Of a DNA stretch of 35,436 bases, positions 2,505-18,027 are shown piece by piece. Every line of letters begins with the position of its first letter. Position 1 is the stretch's first letter. The position numbers and the translations under genes are program-made. The notes beneath the pieces are model-generated. The model made no database searches, was not told the DNA's origin, and saw only the letters and a program-made list of their open reading frames with translations. The stretch spans positions 1 through 35,436 of IMG/VR virus record IMGVR_UViG_3300012172_000010; one strand, 5' to 3'. Source of the DNA: a virus. Its lineage: Duplodnaviria > Caudoviricetes.

Positions 2505-2915
2505 ATGGAATATTTAAATAAACCATTTTTTAAATTTCTTATTGGAATAGCGTTAGTATTTGCTCCGGTTAAACAAATGTTAATTACAGCATTTTGTTTA
2601 GTGTTAGCAGATATGCTTTTTGGTATTTTTGCTGCAAGAAAACGTAAAGATCCTATTACATCTGCTGGTTTAGGACGTACTCTTGTAAAAATATTTGTTT
2701 ATAGTATGAGTATTTGTTTAGGATTTTTAACTGAACATTATCTTACTGGTGGAACTTTCCCAATATTAAGTATTATAACTAGTTTAATTGGTCTTACTGA
2801 AATTAAAAGTATTTTAGAAAATCTTAATGAAATTAGTGGTACAGATTTATTACGTTCTATATTAGATAAATTATCTAGTGTTAATTATAAAAAGAAAGAT
2901 GAACCAAATGCCTAA
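2505..2915 (+). CDS. Holin (phage holin 4-like)
   Basis: 136 aa, several hydrophobic segments, D..FG..AARK...ITS.GL.RT..K and E.KSILENL motifs, charged C-terminus. Confidence 0.8.
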   Translation: MEYLNKPFFKFLIGIALVFAPVKQMLITAFCLVLADMLFGIFAARKRKDPITSAGLGRTLVKIFVYSMSICLGFLTEHYLTGGTFPILSIITSLIGLTEIKSILENLNEISGTDLLRSILDKLSSVNYKKKDEPNA

Positions 2916-3084
2916 TTTAGCTGATGGAATTAGACAAAGTTTTCTTAATAACCTTGGTAAAGAAGGTATGGAAAAAGCTTATAATAGGGTTTCTGGTGCT
3001 TCAGAAGATGATGAAGAACGTAAACGTAAGATTAGATTAGCTGCTTTAAAAAAACATATTGACAATTATACTGTAAGAGAGTAA
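2908..3084 (+). CDS. Small hypothetical protein (58 aa, MPNLADGIRQ...)
   Basis: ATG at 2908 overlaps holin end; preferred over the 2878 start. Confidence 0.6.
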   Translation: MPNLADGIRQSFLNNLGKEGMEKAYNRVSGASEDDEERKRKIRLAALKKHIDNYTVRE

Positions 3085-3092
3085 GATGTAAA

Positions 3093-3251
3093 ATGGATGA
3101 TAATCTATTTAAAACAATTGCACCAATATATAAAGAAATTAAAGCTAGTAAACGCCTTACAAAAAAGCGCATTGCTAAGTCTTTGTCTAATTTTACCGAC
3201 CAGTCAAAAAATCCCAACAAATTACTCAAAAAACCCCTCAAAAATGGATAA
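3093..3251 (+). CDS. Small basic hypothetical protein (52 aa, MDDNLFKTIAPIYKEIKASKRLTKKR...)
   Basis: Manually translated ORF filling the gap and overlapping the next ATG at 3244; not in ORF track. Confidence 0.6.
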   Translation: MDDNLFKTIAPIYKEIKASKRLTKKRIAKSLSNFTDQSKNPNKLLKKPLKNG

Positions 3252-3714
3252 TAATACAGAAAAATTTCTTAATATCATCAAGCAAATTGAGAGTAGTGGG
3301 GGTAAAAACGTCAATCATCCCACTATGCAACAAGGAATTCATGCTGGAGATACGGCCTACGGGTCTTATGGACTCATGCCTAATACTGTTATTGATGTAA
3401 CTAATCGTTTACAATCACTAAATAAACTTTCTGATAAGACAAGTCCCATAGTTGGCTTACCAAAAGAACAAATTAATGATTATTTACGTCAAAATCCACA
3501 AGCAGAAGAAGAAGTTGCTGATTTTTTAGCTAGAAATCTACTTGCAAGAATGAAGGGTAATGAAGAATTCGCAGCAAAGGCTTGGAATGCTGGAAGTAAT
3601 CTTCAACCAGAACAAATGGATCAACAAAAATTAATAAATGATCCATATGTTAGCAAATATCGTGAGATTGCCCGTAGACAAGCATTGCAACGATTAGCTC
3701 AACATGTACAGTAA
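3244..3714 (+). CDS. Lytic transglycosylase / lysozyme-like protein (SLT fold)
   Basis: IESSGG catalytic Glu motif, AYGSYGLMPNT and AAKAWNAG resemble SLT motifs; start reassigned to MDNNTEK at 3244. Confidence 0.75.
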   Translation: MDNNTEKFLNIIKQIESSGGKNVNHPTMQQGIHAGDTAYGSYGLMPNTVIDVTNRLQSLNKLSDKTSPIVGLPKEQINDYLRQNPQAEEEVADFLARNLLARMKGNEEFAAKAWNAGSNLQPEQMDQQKLINDPYVSKYREIARRQALQRLAQHVQ

Positions 3715-4206: not shown

Positions 4207-5151
4207 ATGGCTACCGAAAATACTGCTCCCGTTGCTGAAACTGCTTCAGAAGATACCTCTAATAATACCGAAAATCAAGAACAAAGTCAAGAAAATACCG
4301 AAGCTGCACCTGTTGTTGCTGAAACAATACAACAAGCTGCGAAAAAAGAACAAGCTAAGTATTTAAAATCATTAAAACTTAAGGTTGATAAAGGTGAAAT
4401 TGAAGAAGCCCTTCCTTTTGAGATTCCTGATACTGAAGAAGCTCGGGAATATATGACTAAGCATCTTCAACTTTCTAAAATGGGCAATAAACGTGCTCAA
4501 GAGTTTAGTACTCTTCAAAAGGAAGTTGCTGAATTCATTAATATTCTTAAAACTAATCCAAAAGAAGCCCTTCGCAATCCAAATATTGGAATTGATGTTA
4601 AAAAGCTTGCTGCTGATATTTTGGAAGAAGAAATCGAGAATAGTAAGAAGTCCCCTGAACAAGTTGAAAAAGAAAAACTCGAACTAGAACTTAAAGCTAT
4701 TAAAGAAGAACGTGAACGTGAAAAGAAAGACTTCGAAACTCGTGAATTAGAGCGTCTTACTGACTTAGAGTTCCAACGTTATGATGATATGATCAGCAAA
4801 GCTATTGAAAAGACTAAGGATTTACCAAAAAGTCCTTATGTTGTTAAGAAAGTTGCTGAATATATGATGCTCGGACTTCAAAACAATATTGATGTTACTC
4901 CAGATGATGTTATGAAGTTAGTAAAAGATGAAATTCAGAATGATATTAAGGAGATGTTTGGTGCTATGCCTGATGAAGTAGTCGAACAATTCTTAGGGAA
5001 AGACCGTATGTCTAGTATGCGTAAGAAAAATTTAGCTAAGGCTAAAAGTAATCCTACTACTCCAACAAAAGTAGTTGATAGTGGTAATACTACAAAGCCA
5101 AGTAAAAAAGCTGATAAAAAACAAACATATAAAGAGTTTTTTAAATTATAA
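4207..5151 (+). CDS. Capsid scaffolding protein
   Basis: Acidic disordered N-terminus, LKLKVD.GE, QL.K.G.KR.QE, coiled coil, basic C-terminus; between portal and capsid; SD AAAGGA. Confidence 0.75.
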   Translation: MATENTAPVAETASEDTSNNTENQEQSQENTEAAPVVAETIQQAAKKEQAKYLKSLKLKVDKGEIEEALPFEIPDTEEAREYMTKHLQLSKMGNKRAQEFSTLQKEVAEFINILKTNPKEALRNPNIGIDVKKLAADILEEEIENSKKSPEQVEKEKLELELKAIKEEREREKKDFETRELERLTDLEFQRYDDMISKAIEKTKDLPKSPYVVKKVAEYMMLGLQNNIDVTPDDVMKLVKDEIQNDIKEMFGAMPDEVVEQFLGKDRMSSMRKKNLAKAKSNPTTPTKVVDSGNTTKPSKKADKKQTYKEFFKL

Positions 5152-5200: not shown

Positions 5201-5211
5201 TTTTAACAACT
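5201..5211 (+). promoter_or_regulatory. TTTTAACAACT motif (putative late promoter)
   Basis: AT-rich intergenic, followed by TAGTATAGT. Confidence 0.6.
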
Positions 5212-5282
5212 TAGTATAGTTTTTATTTAATACGCGTTTTTTCAATTAATTGGGTAATACCCTAAGTATAAAGGTATATAGA

Positions 5283-6392
5283 ATGGCTTATGATGCAAAA
5301 AATTCACCTGTCGATGGGCGGCAACTAGAAGTACAACAAATGGTTATTCCAATTGCCTTTACGGGTAGTGCTTCTCCCTCTAGTGTTTCACTTTTGAGTG
5401 ATGAACCCTCAATGGTATTTTTTCGTTCAACGAGTGTTGACCAAATTACAGATGCTCTTCGGGTAGATGAAGTTGCTGATTTCAGTGCGGCGGCGAGTGA
5501 TGAATTTGGTATTGTTCAGTGTTTAGTTAGAATTGGAGAAGATTTAGAAAAAGTTCAAAAAGTTAGTTTAGTTAATCGACATGGATCTAATGTAGGATTT
5601 GCTGCATATTTAGGCAGTGATACTGGTATTACTACTGGCGACGGCGGTGGACAAGATATTATGGTGCTCTTAAATGTTGCACCTGAAGGTGGTGGTAGTT
5701 CTGTTGAATTAGGAACTGCTAGAAGTTATGGTATTTTAGGAGCATCTGCGGTAACTAATACAGGTAATACAGTTGTAACTGGTAATTTAGGGTTATATCC
5801 TGGAACCAGTGTAACGGGATTTCCACCTGGAGTAGTTTCTGGTACACAAGATGTTGCCAATGCTGCTGCTCAAACTGCTCAAACTGCTGCTCAAGCTGCC
5901 TATACTTCACTCTCTGCATTATCAGGTTCAGCAACAGCAATTAATGCAATTCTTGATGGACAAACTTTAAATCCTGGTGTTTATAAAGAATCAAGTGGAA
6001 CTTTTAATCTAGCAACATCAAGCGCCGGAACTTTAACATTAGATGGTGCTGGAGATTATATTTTCATAGCTTCAAGTACTCTTACCACTGGTGCCGGTGG
6101 AATTCCTACAATTACTCTTTCTAACGGAGCGACTGCTGCTAGAGTATATTGGATTGTTGGAAGTTCTGCTACCATTAATGCTGGTAGTGCTGGAACTTTT
6201 CCGGGAGTTATTATCGCACAAGCAAGTGTTACAGATACTTTAGGTGGTATTGTAAATGGAAGTCTTATGGCTCTTACAGGAGCAGTGACTTTAAGTGCTG
6301 CAACTGAAATTAATGCTCAATCGCTTTCTGGCGGTGGTGGATTACCTTCAGCCGATTGTTGTTTAGAAGTAAATTATATTGTTGCTGAATAA
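5283..6392 (+). CDS. Putative capsid decoration/minor head protein with inserted DUF3494 ice-binding-like domain
   Basis: N- and C-terminal parts align with 6541..7005; insert about 5703-6311 has DUF3494 motifs (LGTA.SYGILG.SAVTNTG.TVVTGNLG.YPGTSVTGFPPG, A..AY..L, L.GQTL.PGVY, TLTLDG, YIF..SSTLTT, L.NGA.A..VYW.VGSSATI, F.G.IIAQ.SVT, G.L.A.TGAVTL); ATG 5283 matches paralog start. Confidence 0.85.
   Translation: MAYDAKNSPVDGRQLEVQQMVIPIAFTGSASPSSVSLLSDEPSMVFFRSTSVDQITDALRVDEVADFSAAASDEFGIVQCLVRIGEDLEKVQKVSLVNRHGSNVGFAAYLGSDTGITTGDGGGQDIMVLLNVAPEGGGSSVELGTARSYGILGASAVTNTGNTVVTGNLGLYPGTSVTGFPPGVVSGTQDVANAAAQTAQTAAQAAYTSLSALSGSATAINAILDGQTLNPGVYKESSGTFNLATSSAGTLTLDGAGDYIFIASSTLTTGAGGIPTITLSNGATAARVYWIVGSSATINAGSAGTFPGVIIAQASVTDTLGGIVNGSLMALTGAVTLSAATEINAQSLSGGGGLPSADCCLEVNYIVAE
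5603..5638 (+). repeat. 36-bp perfect direct repeat, copy 1
   Basis: TGCATATTTAGGCAGTGATACTGGTATTACTACTGG identical to 6861-6896. Confidence 0.9.
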
Positions 6393-6540
6393 AAAGGTTT
6401 AAAAATTTTACTTGTTTCTTTCCTGATCGATTGGATCTTACCAGCTAGGGGATCGATACCGAAAAAGAAAATGAACACGTATAGTATAAAGTTTGGAAAT
6501 AATTCCAAATTTAACAAAATAAATAAGAAAGAAAACTAAA

Positions 6541-7005
6541 ATGGCTTATGATGCAAAAAATGCCCCGCAATCAGGTCGCCAGTTAGAAGTTCAAAGATTG
6601 GTTATTCCTGTTCTATTAACAGGCGCGGCTAGTCCTGCAAGTGTTAGTCTTATGTGTGATGAACCAGAATTCGTATTCTTCCGTTCATCTAGCGTAGATC
6701 AAATTACTGCACAATTGGATACTAATGAAACGGCGACTTATAGTGCTTCACCATCTGATGGTTCTGGTGTTGTTCAATGTTTAATTCGAATCAGCGAACC
6801 CCTAGCAAAAATATGTAAGGTTAGTCTTGTTAACCGTAAAGGTGTCAATACTAATATTTATGCATATTTAGGCAGTGATACTGGTATTACTACTGGTACC
6901 GATGGTGGTCAACAAATAATGGCTATCCTAAATGTGGCTAATGCTCTAAACAGTGGTTCTTCAGTGAACGATTGCTGCTTAGAAGTTAACTATATTGTGG
7001 AATAA
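6541..7005 (+). CDS. Putative capsid decoration/minor head protein (insert-free paralog of 5283..6392)
   Basis: 154 aa immediately upstream of major capsid; clear paralogy; function inferred from synteny only. Confidence 0.6.
   Translation: MAYDAKNAPQSGRQLEVQRLVIPVLLTGAASPASVSLMCDEPEFVFFRSSSVDQITAQLDTNETATYSASPSDGSGVVQCLIRISEPLAKICKVSLVNRKGVNTNIYAYLGSDTGITTGTDGGQQIMAILNVANALNSGSSVNDCCLEVNYIVE
6861..6896 (+). repeat. 36-bp perfect direct repeat, copy 2
   Basis: Identical to 5603-5638. Confidence 0.9.
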
Positions 7006-7028: not shown

Positions 7029-8282
7029 ATGGCTACAGCTAATACGTTTGGTACCCCGAATAATACGGTAGGTAACCTAAATGGTCTATTTAAAGAAGTG
7101 TATGCGGATAAACTTGAAAATCTAATTCCAGACGGAGTTAAGGTTCTTAAAGAGGTCAAGTTCGTCCCTAAGGAAAAACAACCCGGTAACCTCTACCATC
7201 AACCTGTGATTCTTGGTATGGAACACGGTATTACCTTCGCGGCTTCAGATGAAGATGCTTTTAATCTTCAACCTGCCGTTGCTGGTCAAATCAAAGATGC
7301 TCAAGTACGTGGAAATCCTGCGTTACTCCGATCAATCCTTGGTTATAATGCTGCGTCCCGTTCACTAGGAAGTGCTCAGGCGTTCGAATCTGCTACTAAA
7401 TATCTAGTTGCTAATATGATGCGTTCAATGTCCAAATCATTGGAAATTGAAATGTTCTATGGGCAAGTTGGTTATGGTGTGGTTGGTGCTGCTGTCGGTG
7501 CAGATGTTACGGTTTCCACTCCTGAGTGGGCACCTGGTATCTGGGCTGGTGGTGAAGGAATGCCTATTGAAATTCGTAATGCTGCTGGTTCGCTTTCACG
7601 CGGAACTTTCACTATTACCAATGTCAATATGGATACTCGGGTTCTAACCCTTGATTCAAGTGCCTCTGGTGCTGGTGTGGTTGCAACTGATGTTATCTGG
7701 CATAAAGGTGCATATGGTAATGAGTTTCCTGGTATTCACCAGATTCTCACCCAATCATCTGGAACGCTATTCAACATCAACGTTGCTCAATTCAATCTAT
7801 TCCGTGGTAACCAATTCTCAGCGGCTTCTGGTGCGCTAACGTTTGACAAGCTAACGCTTGCTGCGGCTCGCCCAGTGGAAAAAGGTCTAGATGGTCCTCT
7901 ATATACGCTCGTTAACGTGCGTGCATGGGCTGGTCTTCTAAACGATCAAGCTGCTCTCCGATTATATGATAGTTCATATAGTCCTGCTCAGTTAGAGAAT
8001 GGTAGTCAGAAACTAAAATTCTTCTCACAAAATGGAGAACTCATTATCGAGCCTTCCATCTATGTGAAAGAAGGTTACTGCTACATGCTCTCTAAAGAAG
8101 AGTGGATGCGGGTTGGTAGCTCAGACCTAACGTTCCGTGTTCCTGGTCAGGGAGATGAATTCTTCCGCCATCTAACGGATGCGGCTGGTTATGAACTACG
8201 CCTCTGGACTGACCAAGCGCTATTCACGTATGCGCCTGGACATTCAGCGATTGTTACGAATATCGTTAATCCTACTGCTTAA
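7029..8282 (+). CDS. Major capsid protein
   Basis: 417 aa; LNGLFKEVY, G..YHQPV N-terminal motifs of podovirus-type MCPs; strong SD; visibly more C-ending codons (high expression); followed by terminator. Confidence 0.85.
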   Translation: MATANTFGTPNNTVGNLNGLFKEVYADKLENLIPDGVKVLKEVKFVPKEKQPGNLYHQPVILGMEHGITFAASDEDAFNLQPAVAGQIKDAQVRGNPALLRSILGYNAASRSLGSAQAFESATKYLVANMMRSMSKSLEIEMFYGQVGYGVVGAAVGADVTVSTPEWAPGIWAGGEGMPIEIRNAAGSLSRGTFTITNVNMDTRVLTLDSSASGAGVVATDVIWHKGAYGNEFPGIHQILTQSSGTLFNINVAQFNLFRGNQFSAASGALTFDKLTLAAARPVEKGLDGPLYTLVNVRAWAGLLNDQAALRLYDSSYSPAQLENGSQKLKFFSQNGELIIEPSIYVKEGYCYMLSKEEWMRVGSSDLTFRVPGQGDEFFRHLTDAAGYELRLWTDQALFTYAPGHSAIVTNIVNPTA

Positions 8283-17133: not shown

Positions 17134-18027
17134 ATGAAACCTAATAAGAAAATTCTAAAAGATCTTGCTGAACTTGCTTCTAAAAAGAAATCTTTAGAAG
17201 TAATGGATCTTGCTGACGAAGGTTATCTTAAAATCCGTGGTCCTCATGGCAGTGCTAGTGGGCAACTTATTGATCAAGATTTAGCAGAACAATATTTAGA
17301 TAAGTTAGCTCCTACTATGAAAGGTAATGAAGCTATGTATCTTGAGGATCTTTCTGTAGATCCAAATTTACGTGGCCAAGGTCATGGTAGTGAAATATTA
17401 AAAAAATTCTTAGAAGAAACTAAGAAAAAAGGCATCAAAGAAGTATATGCAAATGCTTCTCCTTATGGTGCAATGAATAGAGAAGAAGCCCTTCCTAAAT
17501 TATTAGAGTTTTATAAAAAGCATGGCGCTCAAGTTTTAGAAAAAGATAAAGAAAATGCCATGATTAAATGGCTTTTAGGAATGGGTGGAATTGGTGCTAT
17601 AGCTTCTGGTGGTAATGCTGAAGCTGCCACTCATGCACTTAATAACCCATTATCTACTGGTGTTGGTGAAATTGGTGGTAATGCTCTCACTCAATTAGAT
17701 AGAATTACTGGAAGACCTATTAGAGCAGGAGTTAATGCTTTATTACAACATCAAAACCCTTTACAAGCAGCTAAAGAAGCTGTAGTAGATGATAAAGATG
17801 TTACAGGTTCCGATGTGGCACATTCTTTGATGCAAGCTAACCCTCAACTAGGATTTCCCACTGTAGATGGTGGTAGAGACTATCCTCTTGAATCTGGTGT
17901 TGGTTTAGCAGCCGATTTAGCTTTTGATCCCACTAATTTAATAGGAATGGGTGCTGGTGTAAAAGCGGCTAAGACTCTTGGTAAAGAAGGTTTAGCATTA
18001 AGAGCTTTGCAAAGATTTATGAAATAG
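17134..18027 (+). CDS. GNAT acetyltransferase domain fused to Gly/Ala-rich virion-protein-like tail
   Basis: YLEDLSVDPNLRGQGHGSEIL (motif A), VYANASP, LLEFYKKHG (motif B); C-terminal GLAADLAFDPTNLIGMG. Confidence 0.75.
   Translation: MKPNKKILKDLAELASKKKSLEVMDLADEGYLKIRGPHGSASGQLIDQDLAEQYLDKLAPTMKGNEAMYLEDLSVDPNLRGQGHGSEILKKFLEETKKKGIKEVYANASPYGAMNREEALPKLLEFYKKHGAQVLEKDKENAMIKWLLGMGGIGAIASGGNAEAATHALNNPLSTGVGEIGGNALTQLDRITGRPIRAGVNALLQHQNPLQAAKEAVVDDKDVTGSDVAHSLMQANPQLGFPTVDGGRDYPLESGVGLAADLAFDPTNLIGMGAGVKAAKTLGKEGLALRALQRFMK

What the first reader, a model, noticed from the sequence alone, without database searches (positions are those of the whole stretch)
5283..7005. Natural phage display: DUF3494 ice-binding domain inserted in a duplicated capsid-adjacent protein
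Seen: two tandem paralogs between scaffold and major capsid align from MAYDAKN to LNVA and again at DCCLEVNYIV. In copy 1 the short loop NALNSGSSVN is replaced by PEGGGSS-[about 200-aa domain]-SLSGGGGLPSA. There is no signal peptide. Established: the insert's motifs match DUF3494 (IBP-1) beta-solenoid ice-binding proteins, whose N and C termini lie close together, suiting loop insertion; they are usually secreted or cell-tethered in cold-adapted microbes. Inference: the head carries a mix of plain and IBP-bearing decoration subunits, giving a multivalent ice-binding (or other surface-binding) virion for cryoprotection, retention at ice interfaces or host encounter. Copy 1 has its own promoter motif. 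Not all DUF3494 domains bind ice.
Basis: partly seen in the sequence, partly recalled or inferred. Interest (0 to 1): 0.9.

Follow-up and report, generated by a model that had tools for sequence, protein, structure and literature searches.

The report
Ice-binding fold on phage head trimer
A phage found in freshwater sediment keeps two copies of a small gene beside its capsid gene, one plain and one with a complete ice-binding-type domain spliced into a loop, and related phages have made the same splice at five different loops, so the virus head likely displays a flat sticky face that would grip ice or another surface, although binding is untested.

Summary
Observation confirmed. Copy 1 (5283-6392) is copy 2 (6541-7005; 67% identical) plus a complete PF11999/DUF3494 domain (E 9e-39) in the loop before the last strand; contigs of other runs bridge both junctions. 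The plain protein is a beta-sandwich of no known family, predicted to trimerise (0.93 against 0.00 for the best control), and sits between scaffold and capsid genes across the phage family. I found 41 distinct fusions of this family, inserted at five different loops and scattered over the tree; their inserts do not form one clade, and the window's is closest to inserts in tail and baseplate proteins. All 6 fusions with known context lie just upstream of a plain copy. The ice-binding face is intact (25 of 27 outward residues small; both residues proven in AnpIBP kept). Capsid binding, mixed trimers and ice binding are inferred; the DNA comes from freshwater sediment, not ice. The 'own promoter' is the family's ordinary operon motif. 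It works like Hoc-type Ig display with a different passenger. Not found in print; this scan noted DUF3494 in virion proteins before, on other DNA (26 findings).

The parts
4207..5151 (+). Scaffold-like gene (314 aa), upstream landmark of the slot
   Evidence: Position between portal and capsid genes, conserved in relatives; no Pfam or PHROG match, so the name rests on synteny and composition
5203..5211 (+). Promoter-like motif TTAACAACT, likely the late promoter of the copy 1 - copy 2 - capsid operon
   Evidence: 7 matches against 0.74 expected; present 116-157 nt before the single gene in 40 of 49 relatives; function inferred
5283..6392 (+). Copy 1: fusion gene, 369 aa (P0001)
   Evidence: model with complete host fold; 15 of 19 listed strain-variant codons synonymous, 4 conservative
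5283..5681 (+). Carrier domain, residues 1-133 (N-terminal helix and seven strands)
   Evidence: Alignment to copy 2; same secondary structure in both models
5703..6317 (+). Inserted DUF3494 / PF11999 beta-solenoid, residues 141-345, flanked by Gly/Ser/Pro linkers (5682-5702, 6318-6353)
   Evidence: Pfam E 9.3e-39 on residues 151-341; best solved relatives 6eio, 7bwx; B-face rows mapped
6354..6389 (+). Last strand of the carrier domain, after the insert (residues 358-369)
   Evidence: 10 consecutive residues identical to copy 2; strand 356-367, pLDDT 96 in the last block; equivalents of trimer contacts 146, 148, 150
6429..6460 (+). Conserved hairpin with two internal loops in the 148-nt leader of copy 2; likely a translational control element
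   Evidence: Pattern met by 23 of 43 leaders against a shuffle mean of 1.4, with varied pair types; absent before copy 1; no Rfam match; role inferred
6541..7005 (+). Copy 2: plain carrier, 154 aa (P0002), predicted trimer, likely head decoration/cement protein
   Evidence: Model pLDDT 91; trimer score 0.93 against 0.00; family of about 125 representatives
7029..8282 (+). Major capsid protein gene (417 aa)
   Evidence: phrog_14242 major head protein, E 1.2e-11

Best explanation
A phage gene for a small protein that is predicted to form trimers and likely decorates the head was duplicated, and the upstream copy took in a complete DUF3494 domain at a surface loop, so the head likely carries plain trimers plus some trimers with a flat Thr/Ser face that would bind ice. 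Steps: (1) shown: duplication within this lineage, insertion between strands 7 and 8, intact reading frame under purifying selection. (2) Predicted: the carrier still folds, the strand after the insert completes it, and the insertion loop lies outside the trimer interface. (3) Inferred: the trimer docks on the capsid, as most decoration proteins do; the plain copy is kept because bulky 20-kDa passengers cannot fill every site or because it does the cementing. (4) Inferred: the fusion gene is parked between the operon promoter and the long structured leader, which stays with the plain copy, so the two are transcribed together but translated at different rates and the fusion is the minority. (5) Inferred: many copies of the face give avid binding to ice in seasonally freezing water or sediment, retaining or protecting the particle. 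I put head display (steps 1-3) at about 0.8 and ice as the real ligand, given display, at a little over one half.
For: PF11999 full-length match; closest solved structures are all ice-binding proteins (24 of 24 sequence hits; all 12 Foldseek matches at E<=0.001 of the fusion model belong to that list's top). B-face rows defined for AnpIBP (PMC7277481, passages) map without gaps in six of seven rows: 25 of 27 outward residues are A/G/S/T, column 4 is Thr in 6 of 7 rows, and S153 and T156, whose mutation cut activity to 17%, correspond to S294 and T297; T297 and T336 are invariant in 67 of 67 aligned phage domains (68 examined, one gapped). Trimer: score 0.93 in three runs against best control 0.00, contacts agreeing at least 85%, pLDDT at least 91; the mark was reached by 20 of 30 solved pairs and 1 of 23 solved single chains, calibrated on two copies, not three. 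Insertion loop 134-141 is not in the interface list. Synteny: 90 of 102 distinct scaffold-capsid slots hold a member of the family. 41 distinct fusions at five inter-strand loops; 16 changes of fused/plain state on the carrier tree, at least 10 forced by strong branches; fusion upstream of a plain copy in 5 of 5 relatives with context, against 1 tandem among 85 slots without a fusion. The same cassette lies inside tail sheath, baseplate wedge and fibre-like proteins (6 of 27 DUF3494-bearing viral proteins scanned have a virion-structural PHROG label), which points to the particle surface. Trimers are the commonest state of decoration proteins, and 25% of tailed phages carry Ig-like passengers in the same protein classes (PMC7602432, passages).
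Against: The carrier has no match to a known decoration protein by sequence and binding to the capsid was not modelled. The runs that hold the DNA are labelled freshwater sediment (3 with a share over 0.2, one possibly the source, all 2017 and possibly one campaign); nothing names ice. A Thr/Ser column 4 is also typical of DUF3494 domains from rock and subsurface samples, and the mixed S/A/T column 2 seen here resembles those more than the Ala-rich column of polar marine and glacier sequences (PMC12337378, passages). DUF3494 occurs in hundreds of bacteria with no link to ice and may bind other surfaces (PMC11645318, introduction). Interface residues are no better conserved between the copies than the rest (28 of 42 against 75 of 111), and include C92Q, K100H and Y107A, so mixed trimers are not favoured over separate ones. 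The first coil of the insert (146-192) was poorly modelled, on a shallow alignment. Three of the five tandem relatives (L140, L181, L198) are kin, so the tandem rule rests on about four independent cases.
Confidence: 0.47

Rival explanations
1. Same display on the head, but the ligand is not ice: the flat face binds hydrated mineral surfaces, biofilm polysaccharide or a host surface layer, as a general adhesin in sediment and soil, the way Ig-like domains serve mucus binding.
For: Holders are freshwater sediment; face composition fits rock/subsurface/frozen-sediment DUF3494 types; non-ice roles are expected for many members; the cassette is grafted on head, sheath, baseplate and fibre proteins alike.
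Against: The face is smaller-residued and more regular than that of AnpIBP (93% against 70% A/G/S/T), has no aromatic or charged residue such as sugar- or mineral-binding sites usually have (established knowledge), and keeps both residues proven for ice binding.
Confidence: 0.32
2. The carrier is not a head-surface protein (for example a neck or tail trimer, or an assembly factor), or the fusion acts off the particle: made late, released at lysis or kept in the cell as a trimeric cryoprotectant, the auxiliary-gene reading given to viral PF11999 genes in print.
For: Weak fold likeness is to tail-fibre and tailspike end domains and to WSSV envelope trimers (Z 6.5 and below); PMC11515562 (passages) reads three viral PF11999 genes as host cryoprotection.
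Against: Fixed position directly before the capsid gene under the same promoter-like motif; a soluble helper would not need 41 careful loop insertions that spare the carrier fold; no signal peptide.
Confidence: 0.14
3. The insert is a tolerated passenger of a recombination-prone phage cassette, with little function; the fused copy survives only because the plain copy covers for it.
For: Inserts are swapped between unrelated virion genes, occur as permuted and partly doubled forms, and in this family the fusion never stands alone.
Against: No mobility enzyme or terminal repeat at the insert; strain differences in the carrier part of copy 1 are synonymous in 15 of 19 listed codons; the binding face is near-invariant while flanking faces vary.
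Confidence: 0.07

Closest known systems
EfcIBP (PDB 6EIO) and AnpIBP (PDB 7BWX/7BWY), capless single-domain DUF3494 ice-binding proteins
   Same: Same Pfam family and fold, best sequence and Foldseek hits (E 3.7e-30 and 4e-23); B-face rows and the two tested AnpIBP residues are kept.
   Different: Those are free-standing microbial proteins; most characterised members are secreted (PMC9957290, passages). Here the domain is inserted inside a phage protein, has no signal peptide and belongs to a phage clade 60-74% identical among itself.
Ig-like decoration proteins T4 Hoc, T5 pb10, N4 gp17, and Ig-like passengers in tail, baseplate and head proteins
   Same: An adhesive domain displayed on the particle and shuffled among the same classes of virion proteins (PMC7602432, passages).
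   Different: The passenger is a beta-solenoid, not Ig; it is inserted into loops of a predicted trimer rather than appended to a monomer; a plain paralogue is kept alongside.
Trimeric cement proteins (lambda gpD, P74-26 gp87, phage L Dec, T4 Soc, phi29 gp8.5)
   Same: Small, capsid-adjacent gene; predicted trimer; conserved N-terminal arm.
   Different: No sequence or fold match to any of them; the carrier is a beta-sandwich whose best structural neighbours are weak.
Viral 'ice-binding-like' auxiliary metabolic genes (Arctic vOTUs, PMC11515562)
   Same: PF11999 encoded by phages.
   Different: Read there as host cryoprotection; the passages seen give no gene context. Here the domain is part of a structural-module protein.

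Membership tests
DUF3494 / PF11999 (IBP-1 fold) | Profile match above the curated cut-off over the whole domain | tested here: met
   133.7 bits against 28.7; profile positions 1-206 of 208
DUF3494 / PF11999 (IBP-1 fold) | Discontinuous beta-solenoid braced by one long helix | tested here: met
   Helix 193-216 followed by solenoid strands; top Foldseek hits are DUF3494 structures; the first coil has low confidence
DUF3494 / PF11999 (IBP-1 fold) | [quoted passage not shown] | tested here: met
   25 of 27 outward residues A/G/S/T; S294 and T297 match AnpIBP S153 and T156; the beta-2 row was placed by eye next to an alignment gap
DUF3494 / PF11999 (IBP-1 fold) | Measured ice binding (thermal hysteresis, ice shaping, recrystallisation inhibition) | not testable with these tools
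   Needs recombinant protein
Capsid decoration / cement proteins | Small gene next to the major capsid gene, co-expressed | tested here: met
   90 of 102 slots hold a member; shared promoter-like motif
Capsid decoration / cement proteins | Oligomer, most often a trimer | tested here: met
   Predicted only: 0.93 against best control 0.00; mark reached by 20 of 30 solved pairs and 1 of 23 single chains
Capsid decoration / cement proteins | One of the known folds (beta-tulip, OB, tadpole, Ig-like, jelly roll) | tested here: inconclusive
   No Foldseek match at E<=0.001; best Z 6.5
Capsid decoration / cement proteins | Binds the outer surface of the mature capsid | not tested
Hoc-type Ig-like display proteins | Passenger domain with an Ig fold | tested here: not met
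   The passenger is PF11999; works like, but is not a member

The most novel reading that the evidence does not exclude
Phages make ice-binding virions by natural phage display: a phage-adapted DUF3494 cassette is grafted again and again into surface loops of a new trimeric head protein, always as a second gene placed ahead of a conserved RNA leader that sets the ratio of armed to plain subunits, so that the head is a tunable multivalent ice-binding nanoparticle; many 'ice-binding auxiliary genes' in viromes would then be virion coat parts.
Probability: 0.33. Interest if true: 0.9.

Novelty: new variant of a known kind. Interest (0 to 1): 0.72.

Why it matters
No virion is known from the searched literature to carry an ice-binding domain. 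If the particle binds ice, it gives phages their own way to survive or stay put in freezing water and soil, and it changes the reading of PF11999 hits in viromes from host-helping genes to coat parts. Whatever the ligand, DUF3494 turns out to be a second widespread display passenger beside Ig-like domains, and this family shows it unusually cleanly: 41 natural fusions mark five loops of a new trimer fold that accept a 20-kDa domain, with a plain twin as built-in control. The central test is cheap: express 205 residues and measure ice activity.

Tried and rejected
Assembly chimera: rejected. Promoter special to copy 1: rejected; the sigma-70 scan gave no more sites than shuffles (17 against 16.0). 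Single origin of the fusion: rejected, AU test p 3.7e-45 for one clade of 16 carrier-borne inserts among 68 non-permuted domains (19 permuted or part-doubled domains and P0081 left out). Naming the carrier fold: no clear match in PDB, BFVD or by VIA; the Atlas gave only unnamed viral clusters; absence is no evidence of a new fold. The search for longer homologues with a word index found only the window's own fusion; the exhaustive profile search found 14 more; two of its long hits, P0104 and P0133, are Ig-repeat false positives and were dropped. Host: none found; the only cultured match to the capsid is a Silvanigrella phage at 31% and the three genome hits are MAG contigs. No cultured phage record matched the insert (low-complexity filter on). 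No RNA holder listed. Alignment A5 misplaced the plain proteins on the insert and was not used. RNAalifold found no pairs on the MAFFT leader alignment, whose 3' arm is out of register, so model R1 was not used; the leader was tested by pattern instead, and the pattern missed the leaders of L025, L140, L181 in its strict form (L140 passes with a 6-pair stem; L025, L181 look like variants by eye; L198, L241 give no convincing match). Loci of P0036 and P0135 could not be fetched. Two metagenome scans with carrier alignments returned errors. The 33-nt stretch shared with another contig has no match in viral contigs. The second capsid-adjacent family is not detectably related to this one (hhalign probability 0.5%).

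Full report
Setting. The window is a linear virus record, estimated 41% complete, with terminase end, P22-like portal, holin, scaffold-like gene, major head protein and a long structural block. No host was found. Runs that hold the DNA are labelled freshwater sediment: 7 were listed, 3 with a share over 0.2, one of them possibly the source, all three from 2017.

The observation. Copy 1 (5283-6392, 369 aa) and copy 2 (6541-7005, 154 aa) are 67% identical; copy 1 has 224 residues where copy 2 has a 10-residue loop, then resumes with a last strand of which 10 residues are identical. The insert matches PF11999 over its whole length (E 9.3e-39) and is the only such domain in the record. Contigs from three other runs cross the junctions. 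A strain in run X2 differs at 29 places over 5236-5740; the 21 listed differences inside the gene fall in 19 codons, 15 synonymous and 4 conservative (the list was cut, 30 rows not shown). The gene is real and maintained.

The carrier. AlphaFold2 on 126 sequences gives a confident beta-sandwich with an N-terminal helix (pLDDT 91). It has no Pfam or PHROG family and no clear structural match; the best are WSSV envelope proteins and tail-fibre end domains at Z 6.5 and below. Three copies are predicted to form a trimer: 0.93 in each of three runs against 0.00 for the best of three controls, contacts agreeing at least 85%, pLDDT at least 91; the mark was reached by 20 of 30 solved pairs and 1 of 23 single chains, in a calibration on two copies. 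In the model of the fusion the carrier keeps the same elements and the strand after the insert is well placed; the insertion loop is not among the interface residues. Of 102 distinct scaffold-capsid slots in relatives (window's own records dropped; loci lacking either landmark not counted; some near-duplicates remain), 84 hold one plain member, 12 none detected, 5 a fusion followed by a plain copy, and 1 two plain-type members. Position, size and trimer fit a decoration or cement protein, for which trimers are the commonest state (PMC7602432, passages). Binding to the capsid itself is inferred.

A recurrent splice. An exhaustive profile search found 14 further fusions, loci gave 5, and a search with the insert 21 more (23 of 117 new proteins, two identical to locus proteins): 41 distinct fusions, 32 groups at 70% identity. 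In copy-2 numbering they sit at about 26-31 (5), within 47-76 (21), about 103 (6), about 120 (2) and 134-141 (7, including the window): five loops between predicted strands, with linkers rich in Ser, Pro, Gly and Ala (positions are uncertain by several residues because of the linkers). On the carrier tree (17 fusions, 127 plain; quick IQ-TREE) the fused state needs 16 changes, at least 10 forced by strong branches. Copy 1 groups with copy 2 and one plain relative (support 96), and the fusions of L025 and L140 group with their own plain neighbours (support 100), so duplication and insertion happened separately in each lineage. The inserts do not form a clade (AU p 3.7e-45); the window's is closest (68-72%) to domains inside large tail and baseplate proteins of other phages, while secreted-type cellular proteins among the top hits are 46-49% identical. 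The viral collection holds 269 stretches like it (80 kept), inside tail sheath, baseplate wedge, fibre-like and other virion proteins (6 of 27 scanned with a structural label), several per genome, some circularly permuted or partly doubled. The closeness of the domain's two ends explains why it fits into loops (PMC11645318, abstract).

Why two copies. All six fusions with context lie directly upstream of a plain copy (L140 was fetched through the insert, the others through the capsid; L140, L181, L198 are kin, so about four independent cases). The promoter-like motif before copy 1 is the family's normal one. In single-copy relatives 116-157 nt of leader follow it, with a conserved two-loop hairpin: 23 of 43 leaders meet a fixed pattern against 1.4 in shuffles, 146 of 161 stem positions paired against 60-88 when slid, with several pair types per position (the pattern selects for pairing, so these counts lean in its favour). 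In the window the hairpin lies at 6429-6460 before copy 2, and copy 1 sits 71 nt after the motif with no hairpin; L140 and L181 have the same short-then-long spacing (67 and 176 nt), and in L198 the plain copy has the motif again. I infer one transcript with unequal translation and the fusion as the minority. Autoregulation of capsid-assembly genes through mRNA leaders is recalled from P22, not from a call. Whether chains mix within a trimer is open. A second, unrelated family encoded after the capsid gene in other phages also takes the insert, there mostly without a plain copy in the fetched stretch (2 of about 15 distinct loci show one), so the plain twin is not a universal need.

The face. 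Using the ice-binding rows of AnpIBP (PMC7277481, passages), copy 1 has 25 of 27 outward residues A/G/S/T, a Thr ladder in 6 of 7 rows, and Ser294 and Thr297 at the two positions whose mutation cut activity to 17%. These positions are near-invariant across 68 phage domains. This is what an ice-binding site looks like, but the same Thr/Ser column is typical of rock and subsurface sequences too (PMC12337378, passages), and many members live away from ice (PMC11645318, introduction).

What is known. Searches for DUF3494 with phage, for PF11999 with phage or virus, and for ice-binding with phage, virion, capsid or structural protein gave no paper that describes the domain inside a virion protein; I saw listings, and passages of PMC11515562, which treats three viral PF11999 genes as host-helping genes (supplement not read), PMC12923769 (term only in the reference list) and PMC9957290 (no mention of virus or phage). 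Subscription papers are mostly outside the library. This scan has noted DUF3494 in virion proteins before on other DNA: 26 findings in at least 24 genomes, one of them in a capsid-adjacent protein; none resembles this carrier by sequence. I had reached the cassette reading before those look-ups and tested it here.

Verdict. A real, selected, recurrent graft of an ice-binding-type domain onto a likely head trimer: a new variant of Hoc-like surface display. Display about 0.8, ice as the ligand a little better than even given display. Interest 0.72.

Noticed in passing
window 6634-6676: In runs X1 and X4 other contigs match only this 43-nt stretch inside copy 2 (1-2 differences), with unrelated flanks that share a short word on both sides, about 84 nt apart: spacer-like, perhaps a CRISPR or mini-array unit aimed at this gene. 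The flank word is not enriched in the window and the shared 33 nt have no match in viral contigs.
   Followed up: partly
window 6429-6460; leaders in L004, L007, L022, L027, L075, L077 and others: Conserved structured leader before the carrier-capsid genes, with two similar internal loops in pseudo-dyad about 7 pairs apart, like a site for a dimeric protein; not in Rfam.
   Followed up: partly
window 4103, 5203, 8395, 11476, 18064, 25836 (+) and 34210 (-): Seven copies of the promoter-like motif TTAACAACT, at gene boundaries and in the direction of transcription; shared by the whole phage family.
   Followed up: yes
L116, L128, L141, L151, L155, L093; protein P0081: Circularly permuted and partly doubled DUF3494 domains inside tail sheaths and other virion proteins, with tandem full copies in L092: intermediates of permutation by duplication.
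   Followed up: partly
L087 4842-6128, L099, L105, L119, L120, L124, L144, L150: A second, unrelated protein family encoded right after an SU10-like capsid gene carries the same insert (44 of 117 top hits); L099 and L124 have plain and fused copies in tandem.
   Followed up: partly
proteins P0099, P0114, P0074: Other passengers in the same carrier: P0099 has about 65 extra residues without a Pfam match in the same last loop as the window; P0114 has a second insert of about 85 residues besides DUF3494 (by eye).
   Followed up: no
L022, L027, L030, L037, L040, L043, L044, L046: The capsid gene of many relatives is interrupted, with 190-260 aa ORFs between the pieces, as expected of introns with homing endonucleases.
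   Followed up: no
window 17134-18027: A GNAT acetyltransferase domain fused to a further 160 residues lies in the middle of the structural block.
   Followed up: no
window 2505-3714: A holin and a weak SLT-like lytic gene sit between portal and scaffold genes.
   Followed up: no
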